This document shows positions 5,407-32,000 of a stretch of DNA of 32,000 nucleotides, in pieces. Origin of the DNA: Promethearchaeum syntrophicum (GTDB taxonomy: Archaea > Asgardarchaeota > Lokiarchaeia > Sigyniarchaeales > Promethearchaeaceae); assembly GCF_008000775.2 (NCBI RefSeq), contig NZ_CP042905.2, positions 1,380,001-1,412,000 on the forward strand, written 5' to 3'. Numbering within the stretch: position 1 is the stretch's first letter; the number at the start of each line of letters is the position of its first letter. The notes below the pieces were generated by a model. The model saw nothing but the letters and a program-made list of their open reading frames with translations. It did no database searches and had not been told where the DNA came from. The position numbers were made by a program, and so were the translations under genes.

Positions 5407-6002
5407 ATTAATCTAAGATATTCATCTTTAGAATTAATTATTTTTCTTGGATAATTGTAATTTATAAAAGATCAAAAAGTGAAAAAAATCAAGAATTCTT
5501 CATAGATTTTAATGAAATATTTAACCAAAAAAGTGTAAATTACTTATTGCATTCAATTAAAATCAAGATATGAAAGATATAGGGGATTTTTTGATGAATT
5601 ACTTTTTTTTAAATAATTAGGTTCAAAGTAAAGAATAATCGACATTTATTTCCAAATTCTATGAATATTTTTGGAGATAATCTTGATATACTTTTTTTAT
5701 TTTTTCCACAATGTCAAATCTTAAAAATTTATAATATAATAATGAAAATTATAATTTTGTGGAAATTCTAAATAAATATCGAAAGATAATATGGGATAAA
5801 AGGAATCCTATGATAAATTGGAAGAATTAATGAATTAAAATTTAAATAAATATACCAAATAGGGGTATAAATAAACAATATCATCATTAGTTTTTTTATA
5901 GTAGAGATTATCTATTATTATTAACTCTGATATGTACTTAATGAAATTTATTATGAAATTGAGTTTAATTTAGATTAATATAATAGAAAAGTGGAGATAG
6001 GA
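5407..6002. promoter_or_regulatory. Long (~600 bp) extremely AT-rich divergent intergenic region between rmlB (minus) and gmd (plus); must contain both promoters
   Basis: No credible ORF on either strand. Divergent gene starts lie at 5406 and 6003. A GGAG lies 8-11 nt upstream of the gmd ATG. A 9-bp inverted repeat, TTTCCACAA (5703-5711) and TTGTGGAAA (5757-5765), lies inside the region. Confidence 0.4.
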
Positions 6003-7070: not shown

Positions 7071-7093
7071 TAAAATTTAATATTTATATAGAA

Positions 7094-7225
7094 AAAGGTG
7101 CTAAGAACTGTGTATCAGGCGACAATGGTTCTATAGGACTTGCATTAGTAAGAAATTTAAAAGAAAAAGCTTTTTTGGTTAATTTTATTAGTTCAAAATT
7201 CACTAAAGAACCATTACATTTTTTC
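7094..7225 (+). pseudogene. Remnant of the N-terminal Rossmann segment of a GDP-L-fucose synthase-like SDR (fcl fragment), directly downstream of gmd
   Basis: An open frame at 7064..7333 has no ATG, GTG or TTG start. It reads KGAKNCVSGDNGSIGLALVRNLKEKAFLVNFISSKFTKEPLHFF. The GxxGxxG loop and spacing resemble the intact fcl-like N-terminus at 18457 (IYVSGHDGMVGKRLIQYLTENGY...SVETFF). The rest of the frame is low-complexity with no further similarity. Confidence 0.4.
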
Positions 7226-7416
7226 CCTATAATTTATTACCATAAAAATATTCAAAAACCAATTATATCACGAAAATTCATCACATCAACCCATATCAAT
7301 AAGTTTGTAAAATTTTTCCAATTCAATTCATAAATAAGATTAGAAAATTGAAAGAAAAATGAAAATAGAGACAATATTTTTAATTTAAATCCTTCTTCAA
7401 AAAAAAAGAAATATAA

Positions 7417-7737
7417 AAATTTAAATATTTTCACCTTATTTTTTTATTCTTTTCATTTTTTAGCATATTCTCGAAACAAAATTCTATTTATACCTTGTTC
7501 TCAATTAAATTTTTAATTTATTATGGTATTTCTTTACTTCTAATTTTTATTTATGCCATTTTATAGCAACAAATTATTAAAAAATTTGATTTAACTTCCG
7601 CTAATTCATAAAAAAGAATAGTAATATTCTGGACATTTCTCTGGGCGGTTCTATTTTTCGAAGAAATTATTTCATTATCAAATATTATTAGAGAAATTTT
7701 ATTTATAGGTGGAATAATTATTTTTGGGAGAGAATAA
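7417..7737 (+). pseudogene. Decayed ArnE-like/EamA-SMR-type small membrane protein (paralogue of the 13681..14094 gene) with two in-frame stops and no start
   Basis: A single frame reads ...YYGISLLLIFIYAIL*QQIIKKFDLTSANS*KRIVIFWTFLWAVLFFEEIISLSNIIREILFIGGIIIFGRE*. It aligns with the intact protein: ...VLRGFIWLFVLKKFDLAFAYPFMSLSYIFILFISHFYFNEDINTYKIIGSVLITLGTFF. The TAG at 7564-7566 falls where the paralogue has Trp (TGG). A TAA lies at 7609-7611. The terminal TAA overlaps the ATG of the next gene (TAATG at 7735-7739), which mirrors the overlap in the intact pair. Confidence 0.65.
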
Positions 7738-8081
7738 TGATATTTTATTATATACTATTTACATTTTCTGTTTTTTTAGCTTCAATTGCTCAAATCCTTT
7801 TAAAAATCAGTGCCAATAAGAAATATTTGTCAAAAAAGGATGAATATATTTATCATTATGTTATTTTTTCATTTGGAATTTTCTTACTTACCACCTTTTT
7901 AACAATTTTTTCTTTTAATGGAGGGGTTCCCTTAAAATATGCCCCAATTATTGAATCGTCTCAATTTATTTTTGTTTTAATATTAGGAAAAATATTTCTA
8001 AAAGAGAAGTTATCAAAGATTAAAATTTTTGGAACTCTCCTAATTTTAATAGGTATTCTGGTATTCTGCCTAGATTTTTAA
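7737..8081 (+). CDS. Small 4-TM membrane protein, ArnF-like / EamA-SMR superfamily (putative lipid-linked sugar flippase subunit)
   Basis: 114 aa with four hydrophobic segments. Its C-terminal ...GKIFLKEKLSKIKIFGTLLILIGILVF matches ...GVIFFGEKINRYHVIGISLITIGLFF in the 14091..14441 paralogue. Confidence 0.6.
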   Translation: MIFYYILFTFSVFLASIAQILLKISANKKYLSKKDEYIYHYVIFSFGIFLLTTFLTIFSFNGGVPLKYAPIIESSQFIFVLILGKIFLKEKLSKIKIFGTLLILIGILVFCLDF

Positions 8082-8272
8082 ATATTATTAGTTCATTGTG
8101 TTTAATTATTAGTTTTTTAATTTTCGATAAAACTATTGAATTATTTTATTCATATATTCAAAATTTTGGCAAAATGTTTAATTCTATCAAGTTTTAACAT
8201 ATTTCATTAATTTCAAGAAAATGATTATTAACCAACAATGCAAACCTATTACAAGAAAAATCTGGGGATAAA

Positions 8273-10039
8273 ATGTCAAAGAATGAAAATTTTTTATTTA
8301 TTATTAAGAAGCTATTACCTGTATTGATCCTTTTATTTTATATCTTACCATATTTCATTTTAGCAAGAGATGGAAATATTTTAATTCATGATAATTTAGA
8401 TTCAAATGTTATTTGGTTCAAAATTTTAGCTGAAAGTGGGTCATTATTTTCGAATTCAAAAATAATAATTCCTAATATGATGAACGGATTACCAAGATCA
8501 TGTTTTGGTTCAGAATTTAATGTAATTCTATGGTTATATCTTATTTTGGACCCTTACTGGGCTTATGCAATAAATTTAACATTAATGCATATTATTGCTT
8601 ATATTGGAATGTATTTACTATTAAAGACTCATTTTATTCATAATAACAAAAAGAAATTAATTAGTATTGGAGTAGCTTTATGTTTTTCAATCATTCCTTT
8701 TTGGCCTTCAGGAGGGTTGAGTGTAGCTGGTTTGCCTTTAGCTCTATACTCTTTTTTAAATATTAGAAATAATAATTTTTCAAAAAAAGATTTGATAATA
8801 ATTACAATTCTTCCATTTTATTCATCAATTGTTTTATCCTTTGTTTTTTTTTTATTTTGTTTAGGAGTTATTTGGTTATGTGATTCATTCAAATCAAAAA
8901 AAATTAATTGGAAATTTTTCAGTGCAATCTTATTAATGCTATTAATATATCTCATCGTTGAATATAGATTAGTATATAGTTTGCTTTTTGATACTGGATT
9001 TATATCGCATCGAAATGAAATGATTTCCCCAAATTTTTCTATTAAGGACTCAGTTTTATTAGCTAAAGATAATTTTATCTATGGCCAATATCATGCTGCC
9101 AGTTTACATCATTTAATTATTCTTTATTCTGTTATTTTTTCTTTTATTTTGATTTTATATAGAAATTTTAAAATAATTTATCAAAAAGGTTCATGGAATA
9201 TTAAATGTTTATTAAAATCTGAAATTTATTTAATCTCGATTGTTATTCTTATTGGAATTATTTCAATTTGGTATGGTTTCTGGTCATCTTGGATATGGGA
9301 ATCTTTAAAAAGTAGATTTACCATTTTAAATAACTTTAATTTTTCAAGATTTCATTTCTTACATCCATTATTGTGGTATATTTCGTTTGCTATAGCCATA
9401 GATATTATTTATATTCATTTTAATTTTAAAGAAATAAAAAAGAATATACCAATGAAGAGTATTTTAATTTCTCTTATTATTTTATCTCAAATATTCTTCC
9501 TATTTTTTAATAATATTGCAATAAATCAAGATTTAGTTGACCCTGCAGGAAATAAAAATTCTTACAACGATTTTTATTCAATTGAATTATTTCAAGAAAT
9601 TTCTGAAGATATTGGTTTTCCCCAAAAGGATTATCGCATTGTTAGCATTGGATTGTATCCATCTATTGCTCAATTTAATGGTTTTTATACACTAGATGGT
9701 TATATGGCTAATTATCCCTTAGAATATAAGCACGAGTTCCGATATATTATTGAACCTGAATTAAATAAAAATGAAGAATTGAAAAATTATTTTGATAATT
9801 GGGGAAGTCGTTGCTATATATTTGTTGATGAATTGGGAAGAAATTATATGTATACCAAAGATATGGATAAAACTGTTCAAAATCTTAATCTTAATTTCAC
9901 TGCATTAAAAAATCTAGGAGGTAAATTCATTTTTTCAGCGGTTGAAATCCTAAATGAAAATGATATTGATATCAATTTGCTGAAAATATATGAAAATGAA
10001 TTTTCTATTTGGAGAATTTTCTTATATGAAGTGATTTAA
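8273..10039 (+). CDS. Large polytopic membrane protein (588 aa, ~12 predicted helices plus ~170 aa C-terminal soluble domain); candidate GT-C-type transferase, function unknown
   Basis: Long uninterrupted ORF with GGGGA upstream of the ATG. An acidic motif, ILIHDNLDSNVIW, lies in the loop after the first helix. The hydrophilic C-terminal domain includes YRIVSIGLYPSIAQFNGFYTLDGYMANYPLEYK. I recognise no soluble-enzyme motif. Confidence 0.75.
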   Translation: MSKNENFLFIIKKLLPVLILLFYILPYFILARDGNILIHDNLDSNVIWFKILAESGSLFSNSKIIIPNMMNGLPRSCFGSEFNVILWLYLILDPYWAYAINLTLMHIIAYIGMYLLLKTHFIHNNKKKLISIGVALCFSIIPFWPSGGLSVAGLPLALYSFLNIRNNNFSKKDLIIITILPFYSSIVLSFVFFLFCLGVIWLCDSFKSKKINWKFFSAILLMLLIYLIVEYRLVYSLLFDTGFISHRNEMISPNFSIKDSVLLAKDNFIYGQYHAASLHHLIILYSVIFSFILILYRNFKIIYQKGSWNIKCLLKSEIYLISIVILIGIISIWYGFWSSWIWESLKSRFTILNNFNFSRFHFLHPLLWYISFAIAIDIIYIHFNFKEIKKNIPMKSILISLIILSQIFFLFFNNIAINQDLVDPAGNKNSYNDFYSIELFQEISEDIGFPQKDYRIVSIGLYPSIAQFNGFYTLDGYMANYPLEYKHEFRYIIEPELNKNEELKNYFDNWGSRCYIFVDELGRNYMYTKDMDKTVQNLNLNFTALKNLGGKFIFSAVEILNENDIDINLLKIYENEFSIWRIFLYEVI

Positions 10040-21387: not shown

Positions 21388-22818
21388 TTATTGATTTATA
21401 CTCTCTAAGATCTTCCGAATCTCTTCCTTCTGGTTTTGTATTGCATATTTTTTAAAGTAATAATCAACATTAATAGGGCTTCTTTCACTTTTATTGAGAT
21501 TTTCAATTCTTTCATTTAATTCTATAGGACTATTTATTAATTCCATTATTCCTTGATTAATGAATTCCTCAAAAAATTCCCATTCAGTTAATTTAATAAT
21601 AAAAATTGGTTTATTAAACATCATACTTTCAAAAATAGCAGTCGAATTAACGCCAATGATTGTTTTTGCTTCAGAAAATAACTTATATAATGGAAATTCC
21701 TCGTCATTATCAATTACAATTATTTTTGGATTCATATTGATATTATATTCTTTTTTCCATCTTTTGTATTCCTTTGGATGAAGTTTGATATATATTCTCT
21801 TATCTGTTATATCTACAAATTCTTTTGCAAATTTACATAATTCAAATCCAATCGTTGGGGAAGAAATAAATAAAATCTTATTTTGTTTGTTTTGATTTTG
21901 ATATTTATTAAACTCATGTTCAAAATAAGGAAATCCGACTGTTTTAATATTACTTTTTGGAAAAGGTAGTTGAAGTACTTCTTCCCAATATTTCCCGAAT
22001 GTAAAAAAATAGTCCGGAAGTACATCAGGTTTTACATTTTTTGGAAAATTATATGCTAATTGAATCGGATTAATCGCACCATGTTGGAATTCAATAGTTG
22101 GTATTCCCTTCTTTTTACACATTTCGTTCATTAACATTAATACTTGAATATTATTGAAAACATATATAATCAGTTTGGGTTGGTAGAAATCTATAAGTTT
22201 TTCGAGAACTTTATTATAAGAATATCTAAACTTTATTTTTTTTTTTACTTCTTTGATAAAATTAATTTTGATATTGAAATCTTGATTTATCCGTTCATTC
22301 ACCTTATTTAATTTCATAATATCTTCTTTTGTGAATTCGACTTTGATGAATTTTTCTAGAAGAAATCCCAATCCATAGAAATAATTTAGATAAAGAGTAT
22401 CCTTTATCTTTGGAATTTTAACATCATCATAAAGTTGTTCAATGACTTGATATTGAAAATTTACATCTTTTAATAAAAAGTCAGTAAATATATCCCAATT
22501 CTCATTATCAATTCTTTTTTTTCTAGGAAAGCTAAAAATTAAAACTTCTGTTTTCTTTTTTTTGCCAATCATAGCTTCTTTTTTATAGAAAATATTTTTT
22601 ATTGTTCTAATGATTTTTTTTAGAATTCCGTAAAGGCTTTGATCGATATCACCACTTGAAACATTACCTATTATATTTAATTTTTCTAGAATTAACGCAA
22701 AAAGATATGGTCTTATGTGTGCCCAAATTTTTACTCCACAAATATTTAATTCAAATAAATTTAATTCTTTTTCAATTCGATCGAATTGGGATTTTATTTC
22801 TTTTAGATCTATTGTCAT
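21388..22818 (-). CDS. Putative GT-B-fold transferase with TagF / KpsS / bacterial-sialyltransferase-like His motifs (CMP/CDP-donor family); function unknown
   Basis: 476 aa soluble protein with ...IPTIEFQHGAINP..., ...NKILFISSPTIG..., ...RIYIKLHPKEY... and ...AKTIIGVNSTAIFESMMFNKPIFII. The order resembles the WHG / APT / HP / ITDYSS...KPi series of CDP-glycerol glycerophosphotransferase-like enzymes and the HP motif of sialyl/Kdo transferases. This is a family-level guess only. Confidence 0.5.
   Translation of the reverse strand: MTIDLKEIKSQFDRIEKELNLFELNICGVKIWAHIRPYLFALILEKLNIIGNVSSGDIDQSLYGILKKIIRTIKNIFYKKEAMIGKKKKTEVLIFSFPRKKRIDNENWDIFTDFLLKDVNFQYQVIEQLYDDVKIPKIKDTLYLNYFYGLGFLLEKFIKVEFTKEDIMKLNKVNERINQDFNIKINFIKEVKKKIKFRYSYNKVLEKLIDFYQPKLIIYVFNNIQVLMLMNEMCKKKGIPTIEFQHGAINPIQLAYNFPKNVKPDVLPDYFFTFGKYWEEVLQLPFPKSNIKTVGFPYFEHEFNKYQNQNKQNKILFISSPTIGFELCKFAKEFVDITDKRIYIKLHPKEYKRWKKEYNINMNPKIIVIDNDEEFPLYKLFSEAKTIIGVNSTAIFESMMFNKPIFIIKLTEWEFFEEFINQGIMELINSPIELNERIENLNKSERSPINVDYYFKKYAIQNQKEEIRKILESINQ
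22236..22246. repeat. 11-nt homopolymer (T11 on plus strand, A11 in the coding strand) inside the 21388..22818 CDS
   Basis: Read directly from the sequence. It encodes VKKKI, and the frame was checked against the ORF-track translation. Confidence 0.8.
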
Positions 22819-24562: not shown

Positions 24563-25582
24563 TTAATAATCTTTAAACTTTTTTAGAATGCATTTACAAA
24601 TACGATACACACCATTACCATCAAAATTCGAGTAAAGATGTTCAATTTTAGAATGATATGAAGCTAAATTTAAATACAAATTGGAAACAACACTCTCTAG
24701 ATCTTCCCATTTAATTTGCTTTTGATTACCTAAGAATAAAACATTGTGATTTTTTAAAAGAAGTGCACAATCTTCTTGATTCTCAGCGATAGTAAAAATA
24801 ATTATGGGTTTATTTAGGGCCAAAACTTCATAAACTGTTGATCCTGCAGCTGATATAATGATAGCCGAAGATAAAATTATTTCTTTCAAACTTTCAGGAG
24901 CGTGAATCAAACATTCATTTTTTTTTTTTTTCTTCGATAATTCTTCTACAATATCATCAGTAAAAGCAGGACCTATTATATAATTAATTGGCAAATCAAG
25001 ATTCTTCAAATATTTTTGAAATTTTGGAAGAATTCTATAAAAATCTGCAGCTCCTGAAGTGATTGTAATGAAAATATCTTTATTTAATGGTTTGATAATT
25101 TGCTGATCATGTGAAAATGATGTCCAATACTCTCTTTTCATAGGTAAATATTCGGGTCCTAAAAGATATAATGTACTCTCATGATATTTTGGATAGAATT
25201 TTCTATTCGCATAGATATTTCCGTTGATAAGTACTCTTGGATTGATTTTTTTATAGAGATTATTATCATCTAATAATACAAGAAAGAAATTTTTTATCAT
25301 TAATTTTAAATAATGATTAGTTGCCAAATAAGAATCAAAAAATACTATATCAGGATCTAATGATTTAATGATAGAAATATCATAATCATCAAATTTTTCA
25401 GAAGAAATTGTTTTGTAAGATTCACAAAAAGCTTCACCTTCTTTATTGACAATGAAAAAAATATTTAAATGCAAATTTGGGTAGTAATAAGTAAAACCAG
25501 AAGCAATACTTAAACAACGATTTAGATGTCCTAATCCAATATTTTTTCCCGCATTTGTTCTAAAAACTATTTTCATGGTCAA
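24563..25582 (-). CDS. pseG: PseG-like UDP-2,4-diacetamido-2,4,6-trideoxyhexose hydrolase (GT28-C/SpsG family)
   Basis: MKIVFRTNAGKNIGLGHLNRCLSIA matches the PseG/SpsG N-terminal signature (RaDa...iG.GH..R). The C-terminal ...IISAAGSTVYEVLALNKPII is GT-B-like. The gene is divergent from a pseH-like gene. Confidence 0.75.
   Translation of the reverse strand: MTMKIVFRTNAGKNIGLGHLNRCLSIASGFTYYYPNLHLNIFFIVNKEGEAFCESYKTISSEKFDDYDISIIKSLDPDIVFFDSYLATNHYLKLMIKNFFLVLLDDNNLYKKINPRVLINGNIYANRKFYPKYHESTLYLLGPEYLPMKREYWTSFSHDQQIIKPLNKDIFITITSGAADFYRILPKFQKYLKNLDLPINYIIGPAFTDDIVEELSKKKKKNECLIHAPESLKEIILSSAIIISAAGSTVYEVLALNKPIIIFTIAENQEDCALLLKNHNVLFLGNQKQIKWEDLESVVSNLYLNLASYHSKIEHLYSNFDGNGVYRICKCILKKFKDY
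24918..24931. repeat. 14-nt homopolymer (T14 on plus strand, A14 in the coding strand) inside the pseG-like CDS
   Basis: Read directly from the sequence. The coding strand reads AAG AAA AAA AAA AAA AAT (KKKKKN), and the frame is consistent with the ORF-track protein ...ELSKKKKKNECLIH.... Confidence 0.85.
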
Positions 25583-25677: not shown

Positions 25678-26226
25678 ATGGATCTTCAATTTAAGAGATT
25701 AAATGAAAAATACCTTGAAAAAGTAAGAAATTGGAGAAATAATTCAGAAATTTCACAATATATGTATACAAATCATGAAATAACCAAAGAAGAACATTTA
25801 AATTGGTATCATAATTACGTTCAAAAAGGAAAAATTCATTTTTGGATTGTAATCCTAAATGGAATTCCTATTGGAGCTATAAATATATCTAATATTGATA
25901 AAGTGAATAAAAGATGCTTTTGGGCATATTATTTAGCAGATAGTAGTGTTCGAGGTAAAGGTTTAGGAAAAATAATTGAATTAAATGTATATAAGTATGT
26001 TTTTGAAGAAATGAAAATGAATAAATTATGCTGTGAAGTCTTAAAATCAAATGATATTGTAGTGAAAATTCATCAAAAATATGGTTCCGTTATCGAAGGT
26101 GTATTTAAACAACATATTTTTAAAAATGGTCATTTTCAAGATATTGTTTGTATGGCTATTATTCAATCAAGTTGGGAAGAGAAAAAAATTTTTTTTAATT
26201 TTCCAATTATAGCTTTTGAGAAATGA
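25678..26226 (+). CDS. pseH: PseH-like GNAT N-acetyltransferase
   Basis: 182 aa. LQFKRLNEKYLEKVRNWRNNSEISQYMYTNHEITKEEHLNWY matches the PseH family opening (WRN...i...m......I..eeH..W). GNAT core: RGKGLGKIIE. Confidence 0.75.
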   Translation: MDLQFKRLNEKYLEKVRNWRNNSEISQYMYTNHEITKEEHLNWYHNYVQKGKIHFWIVILNGIPIGAINISNIDKVNKRCFWAYYLADSSVRGKGLGKIIELNVYKYVFEEMKMNKLCCEVLKSNDIVVKIHQKYGSVIEGVFKQHIFKNGHFQDIVCMAIIQSSWEEKKIFFNFPIIAFEK

Positions 26227-26232
26227 GAGATT

Positions 26233-26990
26233 ATGAAAATTGGAGAAATAATTCAAGCATTAAAGTCAACTACAAGACTCTCCCAATCAATTCAAATAAT
26301 ATGGTTATTGATCATGTTATTAATCGGTTTAAAAAATCTATTAAGATAAATAAAATTATATTAGCGGCTTCTAATCATCCTGAAGATTATGAATTAAAAC
26401 ATAATGTAAAAGAATTAGATTTTCTTTTTTCAAGGTGATTTAGAAGATGAGCTAGCCCGATATTATGAATGTGCAAAATTTTATAATTTAGATCACATTT
26501 TAAGAATAAAAAACGATTGTCTTCGTATTAATCATCAAATTATAAACAAAGGAATTGAATTTATTTTTGAATCCAAAGTCGATTACATATCTACAGAAAC
26601 TGGTTCCGAGAGAATATTTCCACTTGGAATAAATTTTGAAGTTTTTTTTTTAATACTCTTAATAAAGAACACATAAATATAACAGAAAAGAAAAACAGAG
26701 ATCATGTATGTACCTATATTTACCAAAACTATCCAAGCAAATTTAAAATTGCAAAATTAGAGGCAGAACAAAAAGAATATTGTCCAGATATTCGATTTAC
26801 ACTTAATATAAGTCCAGATTATATCATATTAAACTCAGTTTTTAGGTATTTGTATGGGAATTTTGTTGATTTCAGATGCTCATTGCTAGTATCTATTTTA
26901 AAAAATTATCCATAGCTGAAACTACTTAATCCTCAGATTTATGAAATTAAAACCTTAAAAATGAAAAAGATGAGATTGAAAGCTCAATAA
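26233..26990 (+). pseudogene. Multiply frameshifted paralogue of the SpsF-type cytidylyltransferase at 28389..29150
   Basis: Homology to the intact gene can be followed through four frame segments. Segment 1: MKIGEIIQALKSTTRL (compare MKKIIVVVQARLGSTRLPGK). Segment 2: PINSNNMVIDHVINRFKK..KIILAASNHPEDYELKHNVKELDFLF (compare LLWYLFERLRAL..TLLLATSD...EKFAKENDILIY). Segment 3: FQGDLEDELARYYECAKFYNLDHILRIKNDCLRINHQIINKGIEFIFESKVDYIS (compare YRGSENDVLDRFYQASKEFKADIIVRITGDCPLIDPKVIDRGLDLYLHNKYHYIS). Segment 4: EKKNRDHVCTYIYQNYPSKFKI...IRFTLNISPDYIILNSVFRYL (compare SEREHVTPFIYNNPEIFKRF...YRLTVDEPEDFVVISEILKHF). Shifts lie near 26280, 26430 and the T10 tract at ~26642-26651. An in-frame TAG lies at 26913-26915. 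The track ORF 26223..26438 is one of these fragments. Confidence 0.8.
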
Positions 26991-27042: not shown

Positions 27043-28092
27043 TTATTCCAACATTTCCCATGATAATGGCAATCCTTTTGTCAATTTGTAACGAGTTTTT
27101 TTATTTAACACGTCGTTGTAATACTTGGGTGCTAAACCATCTGCGGGTCTTATTATTTTTATATTTTTACTGGTAATTATTTCTCCCTTCTCAATATCTT
27201 TCGATATAAATATTGATCTTCTTTTTGCCCTATTCATTTTTTCCTGAGATGATAAATCAAAACTTATTTTTCCAATTGCTTTTTCTGCTAATCTAATATT
27301 ATTGACCATTTCTTTGAATTCATGAGGTTCCATTGAGAAAAACGAATCTGGAGTTTTAAACTCACGAGTTAAACAAAAATGTTTCTCAATAACATTAGCC
27401 CCCAAAACCACAGCAGTGATAGCTGCAACATCACCCATAGAATGATCAGAAAAACCAATAGGAAGATTAAACATTTTTTTTAAAGCAAGTATAGTTTTTA
27501 AATTTAGATTTTCTGATACTGCAGGATATGTACTAGAACATTTCAACAAACATACTTGATCGTTTTTTTGTTGTTTAATAACATTTAAAGCTTCTTCGAT
27601 TTCTCCAAGAGTCGCCATTCCTGTAGAAATAATAATTGGTTTTCCTTTTTCAGCAATATATTTTATTAGTGGAAGATCGTTCAATTCAAAAGAAGCAATC
27701 TTATAAAATTCGATATTGATAGATTCTAAGAAGTCAACTGCTGATATATCAAATGGAGTTGAAAAAAAATCAATTCCTACTTTTTCTGCTTCTTTTTTTA
27801 AATCAGATTGCCATTTCCAAGGAGTATGTGCTTGTTGATATAAATTGTATAGATATTGTCCTTTCCAGGCTCCAGAAGATAATTGGAAATATTTTTTATT
27901 CGAATCCAAAGTCATTGTTTCTGCTGTATAAGTTTGTAATTTTATACAGTCTGCACCCGCTTTAGCTGCTGCATGAATAATTTCAATCGCTTTTTGATAT
28001 GAACCACCGTGATTTGCAGACATTTCTGCGATTATATAAGAAGAATGTCCTTCCCCAATAATATTATTACCCACTTTGAAAGAGTTTTTCAT
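27043..28092 (-). CDS. pseI: Pseudaminic acid synthase-like nonulosonate synthase (NeuB/PseI family)
   Basis: IIAEMSANHGGSYQKAIEIIHAAAKAGADCIKLQTYTAETMTL. The E-x-SANH variant is the one I associate with PseI rather than NeuB/LegI (AE.G.NH.G). A C-terminal SAF/antifreeze-like domain is present (GEIITSKNIKIIRP). I prefer the ATG at 28092 over the GTG at 28101 used in the track. Confidence 0.8.
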   Translation of the reverse strand: MKNSFKVGNNIIGEGHSSYIIAEMSANHGGSYQKAIEIIHAAAKAGADCIKLQTYTAETMTLDSNKKYFQLSSGAWKGQYLYNLYQQAHTPWKWQSDLKKEAEKVGIDFFSTPFDISAVDFLESINIEFYKIASFELNDLPLIKYIAEKGKPIIISTGMATLGEIEEALNVIKQQKNDQVCLLKCSSTYPAVSENLNLKTILALKKMFNLPIGFSDHSMGDVAAITAVVLGANVIEKHFCLTREFKTPDSFFSMEPHEFKEMVNNIRLAEKAIGKISFDLSSQEKMNRAKRRSIFISKDIEKGEIITSKNIKIIRPADGLAPKYYNDVLNKKTRYKLTKGLPLSWEMLE

Positions 28093-28242
28093 TAGATTCA
28101 CATTTTTTTCATTTGTTTTTAAAGAATTTTTTTTTCAATTATTTTTTTTACATCAATTCAAAAAAAGAACATTTCACCTTCTATTAATAATTGTTATTAT
28201 AACCATCAGTAGAATATATAATAATAATAATAATTGAAAATG

Positions 28243-28254
28243 AAATCATGATTT
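28243..28254. promoter_or_regulatory. Perfect 12-nt palindrome AAATCATGATTT in the divergent pseI / cytidylyltransferase intergenic region; candidate operator
   Basis: Read directly from the sequence. It is nested in a wider inverted repeat, AATGAAAT...ATTTCATT (28239-28265), and lies ~150 nt from the pseI start and ~135 nt from the 28389 start. Confidence 0.3.
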
Positions 28255-28388
28255 GTAATTTCATTAGTTATTTTACGATATTAATAAAAATTTCTTCCTA
28301 TTATATCTACTTTCCGAAATCAACAAACATATTTGATTAAATGAATTAATTCTAAAATATTAAAAACTTTTAGAAATTTTAAATCATT

Positions 28389-29150
28389 GTGAAGAAAATA
28401 ATTGTAGTTGTACAAGCTCGATTAGGCTCAACTCGACTCCCGGGTAAAGTTTTAAAAGAAGTTGAAGGTAAACCACTTCTTTGGTATCTATTTGAAAGAT
28501 TAAGGGCATTAAAACATGAAGTTACTTTATTGTTGGCAACATCAGACGCTCTCATAAACAAACCTTTAGAGAAATTTGCCAAAGAAAATGACATTTTAAT
28601 CTATAGAGGAAGCGAAAATGATGTTTTAGATCGATTTTATCAAGCCTCGAAAGAATTTAAAGCTGATATAATAGTCAGAATAACAGGAGATTGTCCATTA
28701 ATCGACCCTAAAGTAATCGACCGTGGATTAGATTTGTATTTGCATAATAAATATCATTATATTAGTAATGGACATCCTCCCACTTATCCTGATGGATATG
28801 ATACCGAAATATTTTCATTTGAGGTATTGGAAAATATGTGGAAGAATGCTTTGAAAAATTCTGAAAGAGAACATGTAACTCCTTTTATTTATAATAATCC
28901 GGAGATTTTTAAAAGATTTAATATTGAATATAAGGAAGACTGGTCGAAATACAGACTAACAGTTGATGAACCCGAGGATTTTGTTGTTATATCAGAAATT
29001 TTAAAACATTTCAAGAAAGATTGGCCAATCGCTTCAATGGAAGATATTATTGAATACTTAAATAATAATGAACATTTATTAAATGCTAACGAAAATATTA
29101 AGAGAAATGAAGGTTATGAAAAATCATTAAATATTGATTTTAAAATTTAG
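28389..29150 (+). CDS. SpsF-type cytidylyltransferase-family protein (acylneuraminate cytidylyltransferase superfamily)
   Basis: (GTG start) MKKIIVVVQARLGSTRLPGKVL...RGSENDVLDRFY...IVRITGDCPLIDP are the SpsF/COG1861-style motifs. It is distinct from NeuA/PseF-type openings (PARGGSK). Confidence 0.75.
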   Translation: MKKIIVVVQARLGSTRLPGKVLKEVEGKPLLWYLFERLRALKHEVTLLLATSDALINKPLEKFAKENDILIYRGSENDVLDRFYQASKEFKADIIVRITGDCPLIDPKVIDRGLDLYLHNKYHYISNGHPPTYPDGYDTEIFSFEVLENMWKNALKNSEREHVTPFIYNNPEIFKRFNIEYKEDWSKYRLTVDEPEDFVVISEILKHFKKDWPIASMEDIIEYLNNNEHLLNANENIKRNEGYEKSLNIDFKI

Positions 29151-29163
29151 AATGGGAATCAAA

Positions 29164-30477
29164 ATGAAGACAATTAGTCAAGAATTGTATAAAAAAGCTA
29201 AAAAAATAATCCCAGGAGGAACTCAACTTTTGAGTAAAAGACCTGAAATATACCTTCCTGAGTTATGGCCTGCATATTTTGAAAAGGCAAAAGGTGTAGA
29301 GATTTGGGACTTAGATGGAAATAAATATGTAGATATGACAAATATGAGTGTTGGGGCCTGTACTTTAGGATATTCAGACGAAGATGTTGATAATGCAGTT
29401 ATAAATAGTATTAAAAAGGGTACAATGTCTACTTTAAATTGCCCTGAAGAAGTTGAATTGGCAGAATTGTTATTGAAAATCCACCCTTGGGCAGAATCAG
29501 TAAGATTTGCTCGGACGGGAGGTGAAATAGCTGCAATCGCCATACGAATTGCACGAGCTTATTCTAAAAAGGATAAAATCGCATTCTGTGGTTATCACGG
29601 ATGGCATGATTGGTATTTAGCAAGTAATTTATCAAAAGACAGTAATTTAGATGGTCATCTGCTTCCAGGTTTAAAGCCTACAGGCGTACCTAGATCATTA
29701 ATTGAATCAGCAATACCCTTTGAATTTAATAAAATTGAACAACTTGAAAAGATAGTAGAAAAAAACGATGATATAGGTGTGATTATTTTAGAACCTATGA
29801 GACATGATAAACCAGAAAATGGTTTTCTAGAAAAAATTAGAGATATTTCTACTAAAATAAATGCAGTTCTTATATTCGATGAAATTTCTATTGGATGGCG
29901 AATAAATGTTGGGGGAGTTCATTCAAAATTTGGAGTTAATCCTGATATAGCCATCTTTGCAAAAGCTATGGGAAATGGATATCCAATTGCAGCGGTAATA
30001 GGAAATAGAAAAGTCATGAATGCTACTCAAGATACTTTTATAAGTAGTACTTATTGGACTGGAAGAGTAGGTCCTACTGCAGCAATTGCTACAATCAAGA
30101 AGATGCAAAATCTTAATGTTCCTGCACATTTAGACAAAATTGGGAAATTAATTGGAGAAGGCTGGCAAAAAATTGCAAGAAAAAATGAAATAGATATTAC
30201 AATTCATAAACCAAATTGTTTAATTAGCTTTACCTTTGAATATCCAAATACAAAAGAATTAATGACTCTTTTTATTCAAGAAATGTTGAAGCGGAATTAT
30301 CTTGCAGGAACATGTGTTTATGTAAGTTATGCTCATACTGAACAAGTTGTTTCAGCATATCTCAAAGTAATTGATGAAGTATTTGGAATTCTTTCAACAG
30401 CAATAAAAAATGGTAACATCTTAAAATTAATCGAAGGACCTTTAAAGCATGATGGATTCCAACGATTAGTCTCTTAA
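29164..30477 (+). CDS. Class-III PLP aminotransferase, glutamate-1-semialdehyde aminomutase (HemL)-like
   Basis: AKKIIPGGTQLLSKRP...RFARTGGEIAAIAIRIARAY...ILEPM...LIFDEISIGWR...PDIAIFAKAMGNGYPIAAV (PLP Lys). The start could also be the ATG at 29152, and the TTG at 29134 in the track overlaps the upstream gene. Confidence 0.8.
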   Translation: MKTISQELYKKAKKIIPGGTQLLSKRPEIYLPELWPAYFEKAKGVEIWDLDGNKYVDMTNMSVGACTLGYSDEDVDNAVINSIKKGTMSTLNCPEEVELAELLLKIHPWAESVRFARTGGEIAAIAIRIARAYSKKDKIAFCGYHGWHDWYLASNLSKDSNLDGHLLPGLKPTGVPRSLIESAIPFEFNKIEQLEKIVEKNDDIGVIILEPMRHDKPENGFLEKIRDISTKINAVLIFDEISIGWRINVGGVHSKFGVNPDIAIFAKAMGNGYPIAAVIGNRKVMNATQDTFISSTYWTGRVGPTAAIATIKKMQNLNVPAHLDKIGKLIGEGWQKIARKNEIDITIHKPNCLISFTFEYPNTKELMTLFIQEMLKRNYLAGTCVYVSYAHTEQVVSAYLKVIDEVFGILSTAIKNGNILKLIEGPLKHDGFQRLVS

Positions 30478-30479
30478 TT

Positions 30480-31433
30480 TTAAACAACCCATTTTGAGGG
30501 GTTTACAATTTTTTCTTCTACTTCAGTAAAAGCATTCAAAATCTCTATTTTTACTTTTTCTCCTAAGGGAGGGAGATTTAAATAATTCAAATTTTCTTTT
30601 AACTGATCTAAATTGTCAACACCCATGATTATGCTTGAGATTTCTTTCATATCTCGAACAAAACAAAATGAAAGTTGAGCAATAGATAAATCGGCCCTTT
30701 TAGCAATTTCTGCAAGTTTGTGTAAATGATGTGCTGCGATTTTTAGTGTATCGGGGAGTTCCTTTGGGTTCATAAATATAAGTCCTTGTAAGAAAACACT
30801 TCGTGCAAAAATAATTTTGTTTTTGAAATGAAGTTCCTTTAATAATCCAGTTTTAATTAGACGGTGATCCAAGATATTTATTGGTATTTGTATCACATCT
30901 AATTCTTCTTTCTCCAAAAATAGCTTCACTTCATCAGGATTATAAATTGATACACCAATATGATTAAGATAACCTTCTTCTCTAAGTCTAATTAATGCTT
31001 CTACAATTTTTCCATTTAATTTATGGATATCCTCTGCGTTATGTAATAGGAAATAAGGAATTTTATCAAGATGAAGTCTATTAAGGGATTCAATCACAGA
31101 GTTTTTAATTTTTTTAAAAATTTCATCTTCATTTCCCAAGATCTCAAAAGGAGATAATTTTGTTATGATTTCTGGGGTATTTTGAGATTTATCTGATGAA
31201 AAATTTCTTATAAAATTACCAATAATTACTTCAGAATTTCCATAAGCTGGAGCAGTATCAAACATATTAATTCCTTGATCATAAGCGAATTCTAAGATTT
31301 TTTGCGAATCTTTTTCTGTTGGTTTTCCCGTACGATTAGCGATTCCATATTTAATTCCCAATTGAACAGTTCCCAAAGTTATTTTTGATATTGAAGTTTT
31401 GGAAACATTATTCCTTCTTAAATCCATATCCAT
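30480..31433 (-). CDS. Aldo/keto reductase family oxidoreductase
   Basis: ITLGTVQLGIKYG...ILEFAYDQGINMFDTAPAYGNSE...LLHNAED...IGVSIY is the classic AKR motif series. It is convergent with the aminotransferase, with only 2 nt between the two stop codons. Confidence 0.8.
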   Translation of the reverse strand: MDMDLRRNNVSKTSISKITLGTVQLGIKYGIANRTGKPTEKDSQKILEFAYDQGINMFDTAPAYGNSEVIIGNFIRNFSSDKSQNTPEIITKLSPFEILGNEDEIFKKIKNSVIESLNRLHLDKIPYFLLHNAEDIHKLNGKIVEALIRLREEGYLNHIGVSIYNPDEVKLFLEKEELDVIQIPINILDHRLIKTGLLKELHFKNKIIFARSVFLQGLIFMNPKELPDTLKIAAHHLHKLAEIAKRADLSIAQLSFCFVRDMKEISSIIMGVDNLDQLKENLNYLNLPPLGEKVKIEILNAFTEVEEKIVNPSKWVV

Positions 31434-31551
31434 ATTTGCAATACTTAAAAATTAAATGTTGGTATTTTTGAAAGGATTGAAATTTTCTTGTAAAAAATAT
31501 ATTTCAACAACAAATATAAACTTTAATTTGATTCAGATATAGTATTTTAAT

Positions 31552-32000
31552 ATGAATAAAAAAGATATCAGAATTAATGGAGAAAGAATTTATCTTGTTC
31601 CTTTAACAGTTGAATATGCCAGTGAAAAATATTGTTCTTGGCTTAATGATCCAGTTGTAAACAAATATCTGGATACAAAAAATGCAACGATTGAAAACTT
31701 GCAAAAATATATTAAATCGAAATATGAAGATCCAAATTGTTTATTCTTTGGAATATTTGATAAAAAAACTAATAAACATATAGGAAACGTTAAGTTAGAA
31801 CCCATAGATTTCAATTTAAAAACTGCTGTTTTAGGTACACTTATTGGAGAAAAAAATTATTGGGGGATGGGAATTGCCCCAGAAGTTTATAAATATTTAT
31901 TGAAATATGCTTTTGATGAATTAAAACTAGAAACTATTACTGCAGGTATGTATAAAGGCATTGTTGGTGCTCTTAAAGCGGTTAAAAAAGTAGGTTTTAA
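31552..32000 (+). CDS. GNAT (RimJ/RimL-like) N-acetyltransferase, 3' end beyond the window
   Basis: Absent from the ORF track because there is no stop in the window. ATG at 31552: MNKKDIRINGERIYLVPLTVEYASEKYCSWLNDPVVNKYLDTK...HIGNVKLEPIDFNLKTAVLGTLIGEKNYWGMGIAPEVYKYLLKYAFDELKLETI. The 31590..31814 minus-strand ORF is antisense to it. Confidence 0.75.
   Translation, partial: MNKKDIRINGERIYLVPLTVEYASEKYCSWLNDPVVNKYLDTKNATIENLQKYIKSKYEDPNCLFFGIFDKKTNKHIGNVKLEPIDFNLKTAVLGTLIGEKNYWGMGIAPEVYKYLLKYAFDELKLETITAGMYKGIVGALKAVKKVGF

What the first reader, a model, noticed from the sequence alone, without database searches (positions are those of the whole stretch)
27043..32000. Variant nonulosonic-acid module: pseI/pseG/pseH with SpsF-type cytidylyltransferase, HemL-like aminotransferase, aldo/keto reductase and extra GNAT, but no pseB/pseC/pseF
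The canonical pseudaminic acid route needs PseB (4,6-dehydratase/5-epimerase), PseC (DegT aminotransferase), PseH, PseG, PseI and PseF (NeuA-type). The window has good G, H and I candidates. The only DegT-fold neighbour is ColD-like, no PseB-like SDR is present, and the cytidylyltransferase is SpsF-type rather than NeuA-type. Instead a class-III (HemL-like) aminotransferase is nearly coupled to the cytidylyltransferase (a gap of 1-13 nt). An AKR abuts it tail-to-tail (2 nt between stops), followed by another GNAT. The biochemical role of this recurring trio has not, to my knowledge, been established. It could provide an alternative amination/reduction route to the hexose precursor. It could also build a modified N-acyl or side-chain substituent on the nonulosonate.
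Basis: partly seen in the sequence, partly recalled or inferred. Interest (0 to 1): 0.65.

Follow-up and report, generated by a model that had tools for sequence, protein, structure and literature searches.

The report
Pseudaminic-acid cluster with extra amination module
An Asgard archaeon carries a complete, transcribed gene set for the sialic-acid-like sugar pseudaminic acid (the two 'missing' genes lie just past the window edge), plus a widespread but untested add-on of four genes that most likely puts a third amino group on that sugar.

Summary
The genes are real and mostly as described: pseG-like, pseH, pseI, an SpsF-type cytidylyltransferase (CT), a class-III aminotransferase (AT), an aldo/keto reductase (AKR) and a second GNAT.

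The claim "no pseB/pseC" is a window-edge artefact. pseC and pseB start 121 nt beyond base 32000.

No NeuA-type pseF exists in the genome. The SpsF-type CT is its only CTP_transf_3 protein, so it probably activates the sugar, as FlmC does in Caulobacter.

The AT is not hemL, because the genome has no ALAD gene.

I surveyed 83 loci from many phyla. The usual order is PseB-PseC-[Gfo/Idh/MocA or AKR]-CT-AT-PseG-(GNAT)-NeuB. The two oxidoreductase types never both lie within 2.6 kb of the AT. Fusions CT::AT, CT::AKR, CT::GFO and GNAT::CT::AT exist.

The characterised ElaABC and EpaAB systems pair the same oxidoreductase and CT types, followed by an SDR, to epimerise C8 of CMP-legionaminic and pseudaminic acid through an 8-keto intermediate. 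Here an AT replaces that SDR.

Best reading, about 50% confidence and inferred only: oxidation, transamination and optional N-acetylation give an 8-amino pseudaminic acid. Such a sugar is known in Tenacibaculum maritimum, with no genes assigned. This is a new variant of a known pathway.

The parts
24563..25582 (-). pseG-like UDP-sugar hydrolase (GT-B, Glyco_tran_28_C)
   Evidence: TIGR03590 PseG scores 114.9 bits, below the 153.55 cut-off but the best family. PF04101 E-value is 2.6e-7. An RNA contig covers 24580-25374.
25678..26226 (+). pseH, the N-acetyltransferase for the 4-amino group of the hexose (N7 of Pse)
   Evidence: TIGR03585 PseH scores 153.1 bits against a cut-off of 93.1.
26223..26990 (+). 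Decayed second SpsF-type cytidylyltransferase gene (pseudogene), start overlapping the pseH stop
   Evidence: Three-frame translation shows homology to the intact CT running through at least three frame changes. tblastn gives about 28% amino-acid identity over about 210 residues and no nucleotide similarity, so it is an old paralogue and not a recent copy. An RNA-seq contig matches 26385-26928 with no differences or gaps, so over that stretch, about 70% of the pseudogene, the sequence is not an assembly error; the frame changes before 26385 are not covered.
27043..28101 (-). pseI, pseudaminic acid synthase (NeuB + SAF domains); the only strong NeuB in the genome
   Evidence: TIGR03586 scores 459.9 bits against 340.25. 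PF03102 E-value is 7.9e-93. The genome-wide NeuB search finds one strong match. An RNA contig covers 27080-28144.
28389..29150 (+). SpsF/FlmC-type cytidylyltransferase, inferred CMP-nonulosonate synthetase
   Evidence: PF02348 scores 119 bits. TIGR03584 PseF scores only 18 bits. It is the only CTP_transf_3 match in the 4.32 Mb genome. The closest solved structure is 6oew 'Cytidylyltransferase' at 5e-48, followed by KdsB enzymes. Homologues are named SpsF by JGI.
29164..30477 (+). Class-III (GSA-aminomutase-like) PLP aminotransferase, inferred transaminase of a keto-nonulosonate
   Evidence: PF00202 scores 141.6 bits. hemL TIGR00713 scores 212.5 against 527.3. The PLP lysine (FAKAMGNG) and the Asp of FDEI align with GSAM Lys and Asp. 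Orthologues are 52-69% identical in at least 588 species genomes. Alternative starts are ATG 29152 and TTG 29134.
30480..31433 (-). Aldo/keto reductase, inferred NAD(P)-dependent oxidoreductase acting on the nonulosonate (probably at C8)
   Evidence: PF00248 scores 122.8 bits. Tetrad residues D59, Y64, K92 and H131 are present, each within an aligned block of the solved AKRs. It sits in the same slot as Gfo/Idh/MocA enzymes in other loci, and AKR::CT fusions exist.
31552..32000 (+). Second GNAT (Acetyltransf_3), running on to base 32064; candidate N-acyltransferase for the extra amine
   Evidence: PF13302 E-value is 1.4e-18. The PseH model scores only 38.6 bits against 93.1. A GNAT of this type is fused to CT and a class-III AT in P0230: 38.5% identity to this GNAT and no hit to PseH. 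pseC (32121-33263, -) and pseB (33263-34285, -) follow just outside the window.

Best explanation
The region is one half of a complete, expressed pseudaminic acid (Pse) locus of an Asgard archaeon.

Core pathway. PseB and PseC lie just outside the window. PseH, a PseG-like hydrolase and PseI lie inside it. Together they build Pse5Ac7Ac from UDP-GlcNAc by the canonical route.

Activation. The SpsF/FlmC-type cytidylyltransferase replaces PseF and makes the CMP-sugar.

Tailoring. The CT works as a unit with the AKR, the class-III aminotransferase and, in this genome, the second GNAT.
1. The AKR oxidises a secondary hydroxyl of the (CMP-)nonulosonate to a ketone, most likely C8-OH. In other organisms a Gfo/Idh/MocA dehydrogenase does this step.
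2. The aminotransferase converts the ketone to an amine.
3. The GNAT may acylate the new amine.
The product would be a CMP-5,7,8-triamino-3,5,7,8,9-pentadeoxy-nonulosonate ('Pse8N' or Pse8NAc).

Shown: gene identities, genome-wide absence of PseF and hemB, synteny, fusions, oxidoreductase swapping, and transcription.
Inferred: the reaction sequence, the position (C8), and whether the steps act on the free sugar or the CMP-sugar.
For: Complete core pathway:
- Family scores support PseC, PseH and PseI above their cut-offs, and PseB and PseG as best families below cut-off.
- The genome has a single strong NeuB and a single CTP_transf_3 match.

A non-PseF cytidylyltransferase can serve:
- FlmC plus five other enzymes suffices for Pse glycosylation in E. 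coli (PMC7591256).
- B. subtilis SpsF is needed for transfer of Leg but not for its synthesis (PMC7439481).
- The older SpsF-type gene beside pseH has decayed. That fits the cassette CT having taken over activation.

The genes form a module:
- In 83 loci the AT has a CT within 2.6 kb in 55. It has a Gfo/Idh/MocA gene (29 loci) or an AKR gene (19 loci) within 2.6 kb in 48, and never both.
- The usual order is PseB-PseC-[GFO|AKR]-CT-AT-PseG-(GNAT)-NeuB.
- GFO-linked and AKR-linked ATs interleave in the tree, with at least 12 switches forced by well-supported branches.
- Fusions CT::AT, CT::AKR, AKR::CT, CT::GFO and GNAT::CT::AT exist.
- The trio is 89% identical in DNA in a congener with different flanks.

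The module is optional: 3 of 40 relatives carry the AT orthologue, while NeuB is present in 7 of the 8 relatives checked.

Chemistry precedent:
- ElaA (Gfo/Idh/MocA), ElaB (CT) and ElaC (SDR) epimerise C8 of CMP-Leg through an 8-keto intermediate (PMC13656337).
- EpaA (a CT::AKR fusion) with EpaB (an SDR) converts Pse to 8-epi-Pse, shown by NMR (PMC12053666).
- Here an AT stands where the SDR stands in those systems.
- The GFO family's best named relatives are UDP-GlcNAc 3-dehydrogenase and inositol 2-dehydrogenase.
- Related class-III enzymes aminate oxidised sugar carbons, for example the C-6' aminotransferases 7lm0 and 7lld.
- The AT and AKR catalytic residues are intact.
- An 8-amino manno-nonulosonic acid occurs naturally in the Tenacibaculum maritimum O-antigen (PMC3210612). 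Its genes are unassigned (PMC9796276).

Transcription: RNA-seq contigs cover the whole cluster.
Against: - Nothing here is biochemical. The substrate, the position and the direction of the AKR and AT reactions are inferred from context and analogy.
- AKRs usually reduce, and the window holds no obvious dedicated oxidant other than the AKR. The sequence 'AT deaminates, AKR reduces' cannot be excluded.
- I could not obtain EpaA or ElaA sequences. The link to them rests on domain architecture and gene order, not measured homology. The Gfo/Idh/MocA proteins of the surveyed loci found no Ela structure in the PDB copy.
- About 7 of 39 fully flanked loci have the AT without NeuB or a CT within 9 kb. 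Some of these have an Amidohydro_2 gene instead.
- The second GNAT is present in only a minority of loci.
- The T. maritimum genome could not be checked for the module.
- RNA contigs may contain DNA carry-over.
Confidence: 0.5

Rival explanations
1. Deamination or epimerisation module. The aminotransferase removes an amino group from the nonulosonate or its precursor to give a ketone. The AKR (or GFO) then reduces it, giving a hydroxy or epimeric sugar rather than an extra amine.
For: AKRs normally work as reductases. EpaA's AKR domain was proposed to be a reductase. Transaminations are reversible. The window has no separate dehydrogenase to make the ketone.
Against: It would undo the work of PseC, or of GlcNAc's own amine, which is wasteful. 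In most loci the partner is a Gfo/Idh/MocA enzyme, and the characterised analogue ElaA is the oxidant. A recurrent GNAT, and a GNAT::CT::AT fusion, fit a newly made amine better. The closest solved AKR relatives include L-galactose dehydrogenase, which is an oxidant.
Confidence: 0.12
2. Side-chain supply. The AT and the oxidoreductase make an unusual N-acyl donor, such as a 3-amino- or 3-hydroxy-acyl-CoA. A GNAT then puts this on N5 or N7 of Pse in place of acetyl.
For: Class-III enzymes include acyl-CoA beta-transaminases (title of PMC3149608). Pse and Leg often carry 3-hydroxybutyryl and other acyl groups. A second GNAT is present. Some related loci carry CoA-ligase-like genes.
Against: Repeated fusion of the AT, AKR and GFO to the cytidylyltransferase, and the fixed slot between PseC and PseG, point to a nucleotide-sugar or nonulosonate substrate. 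No acyl-CoA or ACP genes lie in this window. EpaA shows that a CT::AKR protein acts on the sugar itself.
Confidence: 0.1
3. One reading: the trio is an alternative amination/reduction route to the hexose precursor, standing in for the missing PseB and PseC. The CT would act on a sugar phosphate.
For: Within the window alone no PseB or PseC is visible. A few loci show the AT without a nearby DegT gene, for example L046.
Against: PseC and PseB lie 121 nt and 1.26 kb beyond the window end. They also precede the module in the dominant gene order across phyla. SpsF-type enzymes act after the nonulosonate is made. The CT's nearest characterised relatives are CMP-Kdo synthetases.
Confidence: 0.04
4. 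The aminotransferase is the organism's housekeeping glutamate-1-semialdehyde aminomutase (hemL), placed here by chance.
For: GSAM families are its best named matches.
Against: It scores far below every hemL cut-off. The genome has no ALAD (hemB) at all. Four further stretches match the hemL model, one scoring higher than this AT, all below the cut-off. True orthologues occur in only 3 of 40 relatives. They are syntenic with NeuB and CT across phyla.
Confidence: 0.01

Closest known systems
Canonical CMP-pseudaminic acid pathway (PseB, PseC, PseH, PseG, PseI, PseF) of Helicobacter pylori and Campylobacter jejuni
   Same: Five of the six steps have recognisable genes here. PseC, PseH and PseI score above the curated cut-offs. 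PseB and PseG are the best families for their genes but score below cut-off.
   Different: No PseF/NeuA-type synthetase exists anywhere in the genome. Four extra genes (CT, AT, AKR, GNAT2) are embedded between pseI and pseC.
FlmC of Caulobacter crescentus and SpsF of Bacillus subtilis (non-PseF cytidylyltransferases of nonulosonate pathways)
   Same: A CTP_transf_3 enzyme unrelated to PseF does the CMP activation. FlmC completes a six-enzyme Pse pathway in E. coli. SpsF is needed only after Leg is made. Homologues of the window's CT are named SpsF by JGI.
   Different: Those systems have no partner aminotransferase or AKR. I did not align FlmC or SpsF with the window protein directly.
ElaA-ElaB-ElaC of Acinetobacter baumannii KL49 (CMP-Leg5,7Ac2 C8 epimerisation)
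   Same: It is a three-gene unit. A Gfo/Idh/MocA dehydrogenase oxidises C8-OH, a cytidylyltransferase activates the sugar, and a third enzyme acts on the 8-keto intermediate. The surveyed loci show GFO-CT-AT in the same order.
   Different: The third enzyme there is an SDR that reduces the ketone to the epimer. Here it is a PLP aminotransferase, and in this window the oxidoreductase is an AKR. Sequence homology to the Ela proteins could not be measured.
EpaA-EpaB of A. baumannii prophages (Pse5Ac7Ac to 8-epi-Pse5Ac7Ac)
   Same: EpaA is a CTP_transf_3::Aldo_ket_red fusion acting on pseudaminic acid. The same architecture occurs in this family, as CT::AKR in L054 and many proteins, and as AKR::CT in L026 and L082.
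   Different: EpaB is an SDR and no aminotransferase is involved. In the window the CT and AKR are separate genes.
Aeromonas group I polar-flagellin glycosylation islands; Legionella pneumophila Sg6/Sg12 O-antigen locus; Vibrio B9-25K2 Pse cluster
   Same: The published gene orders match the dominant order found here: pseB-pseC-[aldo/keto reductase]-pseF-[class III aminotransferase]-pseG-(pseH)-pseI; GNAT-PseG-HemL-like-cytidylyltransferase; and an SpsF::AKR fusion without NeuA.
   Different: Those are bacterial flagellin or LPS loci. The papers describe the genes but assign them no function. The host here is an Asgard archaeon and the glycan target is unknown.
Oxidise-then-transaminate installation of amino groups on finished sugars: Kdo8N (KdnB/KdnA, Shewanella) and aminoglycoside C-6' amination (for example GenB-type class-III aminotransferases)
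   Same: The logic is the same: a dehydrogenase plus a PLP aminotransferase. The C-6' aminotransferases are detectable homologues of the window AT (7lm0 and 7lld, about 1e-34). Kdo8N shows that an ulosonic acid can be aminated at its tail (the enzyme names are from my own knowledge).
   Different: The substrates and the oxidant families differ. The AT here is no closer to them than to GSAM.

Membership tests
Canonical CMP-pseudaminic acid pathway | PseB, inverting UDP-GlcNAc 4,6-dehydratase | tested here: inconclusive
   Window-relative 33263-34285(-). TIGR03589 scores 349.1 bits, below the 407.75 cut-off. The next family (FnlA) scores only 227.8.
Canonical CMP-pseudaminic acid pathway | PseC, DegT-type aminotransferase | tested here: met
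   Window-relative 32121-33263(-). TIGR03588 scores 541.6 against 423.5.
Canonical CMP-pseudaminic acid pathway | PseH N-acetyltransferase | tested here: met
   25678-26226(+). TIGR03585 scores 153.1 against 93.1.
Canonical CMP-pseudaminic acid pathway | PseG UDP-sugar hydrolase | tested here: inconclusive
   24563-25582(-). TIGR03590 scores 114.9, below 153.55, but is the best family and covers the full length.
Canonical CMP-pseudaminic acid pathway | PseI synthase | tested here: met
   TIGR03586 scores 459.9 against 340.25.
Canonical CMP-pseudaminic acid pathway | PseF (NeuA-type) CMP-Pse synthetase | tested here: not met
   TIGR03584 scores 18 bits against 205.7 for the window CT. The whole genome has no other CTP_transf_3 match.
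SpsF/FlmC-type cytidylyltransferases (CTP_transf_3, COG1861-like) | CTP_transf_3 fold with a KdsB-like N-terminal nucleotide-binding region, found in a nonulosonate locus | tested here: met
   PF02348 scores 119 bits against 22.6. 6oew matches at 5e-48 and KdsB enzymes at 1e-12. Homologues are named SpsF by JGI. It is adjacent to NeuB genes in 25 loci. COG and CDD models were not available.
Glutamate-1-semialdehyde 2,1-aminomutase (HemL) | Scores above the hemL equivalog cut-off and sits in a genome with a C5 tetrapyrrole pathway | tested here: not met
   TIGR00713 scores 212.5 against 527.3. No ALAD in the genome. A higher-scoring stretch, also below the cut-off, lies elsewhere in the genome.
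Class-III PLP aminotransferases | Aminotran_3 domain with the Schiff-base lysine and the pyridine-N aspartate | tested here: met
   PF00202 scores 141.6 bits. The Lys in FAKAMGNG and the Asp in FDEI align with GSAM 'LGKIIGGG' and 'FDEV'. Both are invariant in 17 orthologues.
Aldo/keto reductases | (alpha/beta)8 AKR domain with the Asp-Tyr-Lys-His tetrad | tested here: met
   PF00248 scores 122.8 bits. D59, Y64, K92 and H131 are present, each within an aligned block of 3n2t, 1ynp and 1pyf. The tetrad positions in those structures were taken from general knowledge of the family, not checked residue by residue.
ElaABC / EpaAB-type nonulosonate C8 redox modules | NAD(P) oxidoreductase (Gfo/Idh/MocA or AKR) adjacent or fused to the cytidylyltransferase | tested here: met
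   In the window the AKR lies one gene from the CT. Across loci GFO (29) or AKR (19) lies within 2.6 kb of the AT, next to the CT in the usual gene order. CT::AKR, AKR::CT and CT::GFO fusions exist.
ElaABC / EpaAB-type nonulosonate C8 redox modules | Second oxidoreductase (SDR: ElaC or EpaB) that reduces the 8-keto intermediate to the epimer | tested here: not met
   No adh_short gene lies in the window cluster. The aminotransferase occupies that slot. So this is not an epimerase system, though it may share the first step.
ElaABC / EpaAB-type nonulosonate C8 redox modules | Sequence homology of the oxidoreductase to ElaA or to the EpaA AKR domain, and action at C8 | not testable with these tools
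   The EpaA and ElaA sequences could not be retrieved. The phage collection and the PDB copy gave no such entries.

The most novel reading that the evidence does not exclude
The [Gfo/Idh/MocA or AKR]-cytidylyltransferase-class-III aminotransferase unit, with an optional GNAT or methyltransferase, is the so far unassigned genetic basis of 8-amino-8-deoxy nonulosonic acids (5,7,8-triamino sugars of the Pse and Leg series). These sugars are known chemically only from Tenacibaculum maritimum. If so, such triamino 'sialic-acid-like' sugars are not a curiosity. They would be made by hundreds of species in both domains: at least 588 species genomes hold the AT. They would include Asgard archaea, Patescibacteria, Aeromonas flagellin islands and Legionella O-antigens.
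Probability: 0.4. Interest if true: 0.7.

Novelty: new variant of a known kind. Interest (0 to 1): 0.5.

Why it matters
Nonulosonic acids decorate flagella, capsules, LPS and archaeal glycoproteins, and they shape recognition by phages and immune systems.

The module studied here sits in many published pathogen loci, including Aeromonas flagellin islands and the Legionella Sg6/12 O-antigen locus. It also occurs in hundreds of uncultured lineages. No function has been assigned to it.

Reading it as the aminating counterpart of the recently solved ElaABC/EpaAB C8-epimerisation systems gives a concrete prediction about the reaction. The prediction can be tested cheaply with CMP-Pse5Ac7Ac, which can already be made enzymatically, and simple mass shifts.

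It would also explain the orphan 8-amino sugar of Tenacibaculum maritimum.

For the Asgard host, it shows a complete, transcribed pathway for a bacterial-type sialic-acid-like sugar inside a large, mosaic glycosylation island. That bears on what the cell surface of these archaea looks like.

Tried and rejected
1. I looked for EpaA by tblastn of the window AKR against the phage collection. Only generic AKRs at about 25% identity came back.
2. I looked for ElaA among solved structures, using two Gfo/Idh/MocA proteins from the surveyed loci. Only structural-genomics dehydrogenases appeared.
3. I tried to name candidate EpaA-like 540-546 aa fusions by cluster look-up. None carries a name or accession.
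4. I wanted to test whether Tenacibaculum maritimum carries the module.
5. Literature searches for a characterised function of the trio, or for 8-amino Pse/Leg biosynthesis, found descriptions of the genes but no assays.
6. I rejected the housekeeping hemL reading.
7. I rejected the idea that the pseudogene is an assembly error, at least for 26385-26928.
8. I rejected the idea that the pseudogene is a recent duplicate of the intact CT.
9. I did not run structure prediction. It would not settle the substrate or the position.

Full report
**Where the window lies.** The window is bases 1,380,001-1,412,000 of a single 4.32 Mb contig with 31% G+C. The closest homologues of its proteins come from Promethearchaeota, Lokiarchaeota and Hodarchaeota assemblies. 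The host is therefore an Asgard archaeon. An RNA-seq run from 2020 holds the region.

**Checking the observation.** Family scans give the following:
- A PseG-like GT-B protein at 24563-25582(-). TIGR03590 scores 114.9 bits, below the cut-off of 153.55.
- PseH at 25678-26226(+). The score is 153.1 against 93.1.
- PseI at 27043-28101(-). The score is 459.9 against 340.25.
- A CTP_transf_3 cytidylyltransferase at 28389-29150(+). It scores 18 bits on the PseF model, against a cut-off of 205.7.
- A class-III aminotransferase. Its database gene call starts at ATG 29164 and ends at 30477 (437 aa, P0001). ATG 29152 and TTG 29134 are alternative starts.
- An aldo/keto reductase at 30480-31433(-).
- A second GNAT at 31552-32064(+).

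**What lies just outside.** The contig continues past base 32000. A 380-aa protein at window-relative 32121-33263(-) scores 541.6 bits on the PseC model (cut-off 423.5). It overlaps by one base a 340-aa protein at 33263-34285(-). That protein's best family is PseB: 349.1 bits, below the 407.75 cut-off, with the next family at 227.8.

The other half is not met. The whole genome holds exactly one CTP_transf_3 match, the SpsF-type gene in the window. It holds one strong NeuB, the pseI in the window. It has no ALAD (hemB) gene. No stretch of the genome reaches the hemL cut-off, and another stretch scores higher on that model than the window AT. The AT is therefore not a housekeeping hemL.

**A decayed second cytidylyltransferase.** The 820 nt between pseH and pseI hold the remains of another SpsF-type gene. 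Its start overlaps the pseH stop. Homology to the intact CT runs through at least three frame changes. The two share only about 28% amino-acid identity and no nucleotide similarity, so this is an old paralogue and not a recent copy. An RNA-seq contig matches 26385-26928 without a single difference or gap, so that stretch is not an assembly error.

I read this as follows. The local pseG/pseH/CT'/pseI block once had its own activating enzyme. That enzyme became dispensable when the CT-AT-AKR cassette arrived. This fits the cassette CT being a CMP-pseudaminate synthetase.

**Is an SpsF-type enzyme a plausible PseF substitute?** Yes, and this part is already known.
- In Caulobacter, FlmC is a cytidylyltransferase with no detectable homology to PseF. 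With FlmA, FlmB, FlmH, FlmD and NeuB it is sufficient to reconstitute pseudaminic-acid glycosylation of flagellin in E. coli (PMC7591256).
- In B. subtilis, spsF mutants still make legionaminic acid but cannot transfer it (PMC7439481).
- The nearest solved structure to the window CT is an uncharacterised 'Cytidylyltransferase' (6oew, 5e-48). CMP-Kdo synthetases follow.

**How the extra genes behave elsewhere.** The AT family is very well conserved, at 52-69% identity from Asgard archaea to Patescibacteria, Chloroflexota, Planctomycetota and Campylobacterota. It is found in at least 588 species-representative genomes. I annotated 83 loci with the window's proteins and by de novo clustering. The findings are:
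- The dominant order is PseB-PseC-[X]-CT-AT-PseG-(GNAT)-NeuB.
- X is either a Gfo/Idh/MocA oxidoreductase (29 loci within 2.6 kb of the AT; Pfam) or an AKR (19 loci). It is never both.
- Of 39 loci with at least 8 kb on both sides, 29 hold NeuB, 30 hold a cytidylyltransferase, and 31 hold an oxidoreductase.
- In legionaminic-type clusters (NeuC-like epimerase, hexapeptide acetyltransferase), a NeuA-type CT and a PtmA-like SDR accompany the AT instead.
- In a maximum-likelihood tree of the ATs, the GFO-linked and AKR-linked sequences interleave. Sister pairs such as L049 (GFO) and L062 (AKR) differ in the oxidoreductase and are otherwise the same cluster. At least 12 switches are forced by well-supported branches. 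The two oxidoreductase families therefore replace each other in one role.

**Gene fusions tie the parts together.**
- CT::AT occurs in L009, L020, L051, L073, P0103, P0115 and P0225.
- AKR::CT occurs in L026 and L082.
- CT::AKR occurs in L054 and in dozens of proteins.
- CT::GFO lies directly after the AT in L107 and L109.
- One GNAT::CT::AT protein exists (P0230). Its GNAT is 38.5% identical to the window's second GNAT and does not match PseH.

**Behaviour among relatives.** The AT orthologue is present in only 3 of 40 genomes, while NeuB is present in 7 of the 8 I checked. The module is thus an optional add-on and not a core step. In the one congener that has it, the CT-AT-AKR segment is 89% identical in DNA to window 28222-31568, but the flanks differ. 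That genome's PseI, PseB and PseC are only 63-69% identical in protein. The trio therefore moves as a cassette.

**What is published.** The same gene order is described without functional assignment in three places:
- Aeromonas group I flagellin glycosylation islands: pseB, pseC, aldo/keto reductase, pseF, class III aminotransferase, pseG, (pseH), pseI (PMC7874193).
- The Legionella pneumophila Sg6/Sg12 O-antigen locus (PMC3694923).
- A Vibrio Pse cluster with an SpsF::AKR fusion and no NeuA (PMC7371886).

Searches for a tested function found nothing.

Two recently characterised systems supply the mechanistic lead.
- In A. baumannii KL49, ElaA (Gfo/Idh/MocA) oxidises C8-OH of CMP-Leg5,7Ac2. 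ElaB is the cytidylyltransferase. ElaC (SDR) reduces the 8-keto intermediate to the 8-epimer (PMC13656337).
- Prophage-borne EpaA is a CTP_transf_3::Aldo_ket_red fusion. With the SDR EpaB it converts Pse5Ac7Ac to 8-epi-Pse5Ac7Ac, as shown by NMR (PMC12053666).

The unit studied here has the same first two components, GFO or AKR plus CT. A PLP aminotransferase stands where those systems have the SDR.

**Proposed mechanism.** All steps are inferred. The oxidoreductase makes a keto-nonulosonate, most likely at C8. The AT turns the ketone into an amine. Where present, the second GNAT acylates it. In some loci a methyltransferase lies beside the AT and could instead act on the new amine, but I did not test this.

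Supporting points:
- Both enzymes have intact catalytic residues.
- The GFO family's nearest named relatives are keto-sugar-forming dehydrogenases that feed aminotransferases, such as UDP-GlcNAc 3-dehydrogenase.
- Class-III homologues of the AT aminate oxidised sugar carbons, for example the C-6' aminotransferases.
- A third aminotransferase in a pathway whose product has two amino groups points to a third amine.
- A matching natural product exists: 5,7-diacylamido-8-amino-3,5,7,8,9-pentadeoxy-manno-nonulosonic acid in the Tenacibaculum maritimum O-antigen (PMC3210612). [quoted passage not shown]

**Weak points.**
- There is no biochemistry.
- AKRs usually reduce. The reverse order, in which the AT deaminates and the AKR reduces, is not excluded.
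- C4 is a possible alternative position.
- The order of CMP activation relative to the redox and amination steps is open.
- Homology to EpaA and ElaA could not be measured.
- Some loci have the AT without NeuB or a CT nearby.
- The T. maritimum genome could not be examined.

I put about 0.8 on 'complete Pse pathway with an SpsF-type activating enzyme'. I put about 0.5 on 'the module adds an amino group', and about 0.4 on C8 specifically.

**Expression.** Contigs of the RNA-seq run lie on pseG, the pseudogene, pseI, the CT, the AT, the AKR and the second GNAT at 100% or near-100% identity. The cluster appears to be transcribed. The caveats are that contig depth is a poor measure of expression and that DNA carry-over is possible.

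**Verdict.** The thing itself is a new variant of a known pathway. It is already visible in published loci and repeatedly met in this scan, but it is functionally untested. It now has a specific and cheaply testable mechanistic prediction.

Noticed in passing
window 26223-26990 (+): Frameshifted remnant of a second, divergent SpsF-type cytidylyltransferase directly after pseH. It is about 28% identical to the intact copy and shows no DNA similarity. RNA contigs confirm the sequence of 26385-26928.
   Followed up: yes
L102 (G003:C107) 5748-9098 versus window 28222-31568; L113 (G003:C307): In a congener, the CT-AT-AKR trio is 89% identical in DNA but sits in different flanks. That genome's PseI, PseB and PseC are only 63-69% identical in protein. 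The trio seems to be exchanged as a cassette, independently of the core pse genes.
   Followed up: partly
L110 (G012:C1:5070001-5090000): A 6.0 Mb relative of the same family has a legionaminic-type cluster: NeuB, a NeuC-like epimerase and a NeuA-type CT. Next to it lie a Gfo/Idh/MocA gene and a PtmA-like SDR. This is an ElaABC-like arrangement, which suggests 8-epimerised legionaminic acid in another Asgard archaeon.
   Followed up: no
window 21388-22818 (-): A 476-aa protein with no firm Pfam family. Its C-terminal half weakly matches TIGR04396 'surface carbohydrate biosynthesis protein' (25.7 bits) and Epimerase_2, hinting at a GT-B-like fold. It is a candidate transferase for the CMP-sugar.
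   Followed up: partly
whole genome (G000): The genome has no ALAD (hemB), so it probably has no tetrapyrrole synthesis. Yet five stretches match the hemL model, all below its cut-off. The best is at C1:2718305-2719381, in a 492-aa open frame. Orthologues of that one, not of the window AT, are what most relatives carry (about 35-37% identity to the window AT).
   Followed up: partly
L107 10222-10791; L109 10262-10819; proteins P0151-P0194: DUF218 (ElyC/SanA/YdcF family) genes sit between the CT and NeuB in clusters that lack a PseG-like gene. DUF218 is also often fused to the SpsF-type CT, mostly in Patescibacteria. It may stand in for the UDP-sugar hydrolase.
   Followed up: no
L107 2921-5558; L109 3971-6622: Three genes that resemble ATP-citrate lyase or succinyl-CoA synthetase lie between PseC and the AT in two clusters. 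Their domains are ATP-grasp_2/Citrate_bind, CoA_binding/Ligase_CoA, and a short Citrate_synt. They may supply an unusual acyl-CoA for N-acylation.
   Followed up: no
L015, L018, L054, L064, L068, L079 (genes next to the AT): Small SAM-methyltransferase genes (Methyltransf_11/25) lie directly beside the AT in several Patescibacteria, Micrarchaeota and Spirochaetota loci. They are possible N-methylases of the new amine.
   Followed up: no
L029, L032, L041, L050, L071, L080: In several loci (Chloroflexota, Acidobacteriota, Spirochaetota and Vermiphilus), the AT lies with an Amidohydro_2 gene, and in some also an AKR, with no NeuB or CT within 9 kb. The same AT may be used in a second context.
   Followed up: no
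window 25280 and 31958: The RNA-seq contigs differ from the genome at two bases: A>G at 25280 inside pseG, and G>A at 31958 inside the second GNAT. These may be strain variants or errors. There are too few data to call editing.
   Followed up: no
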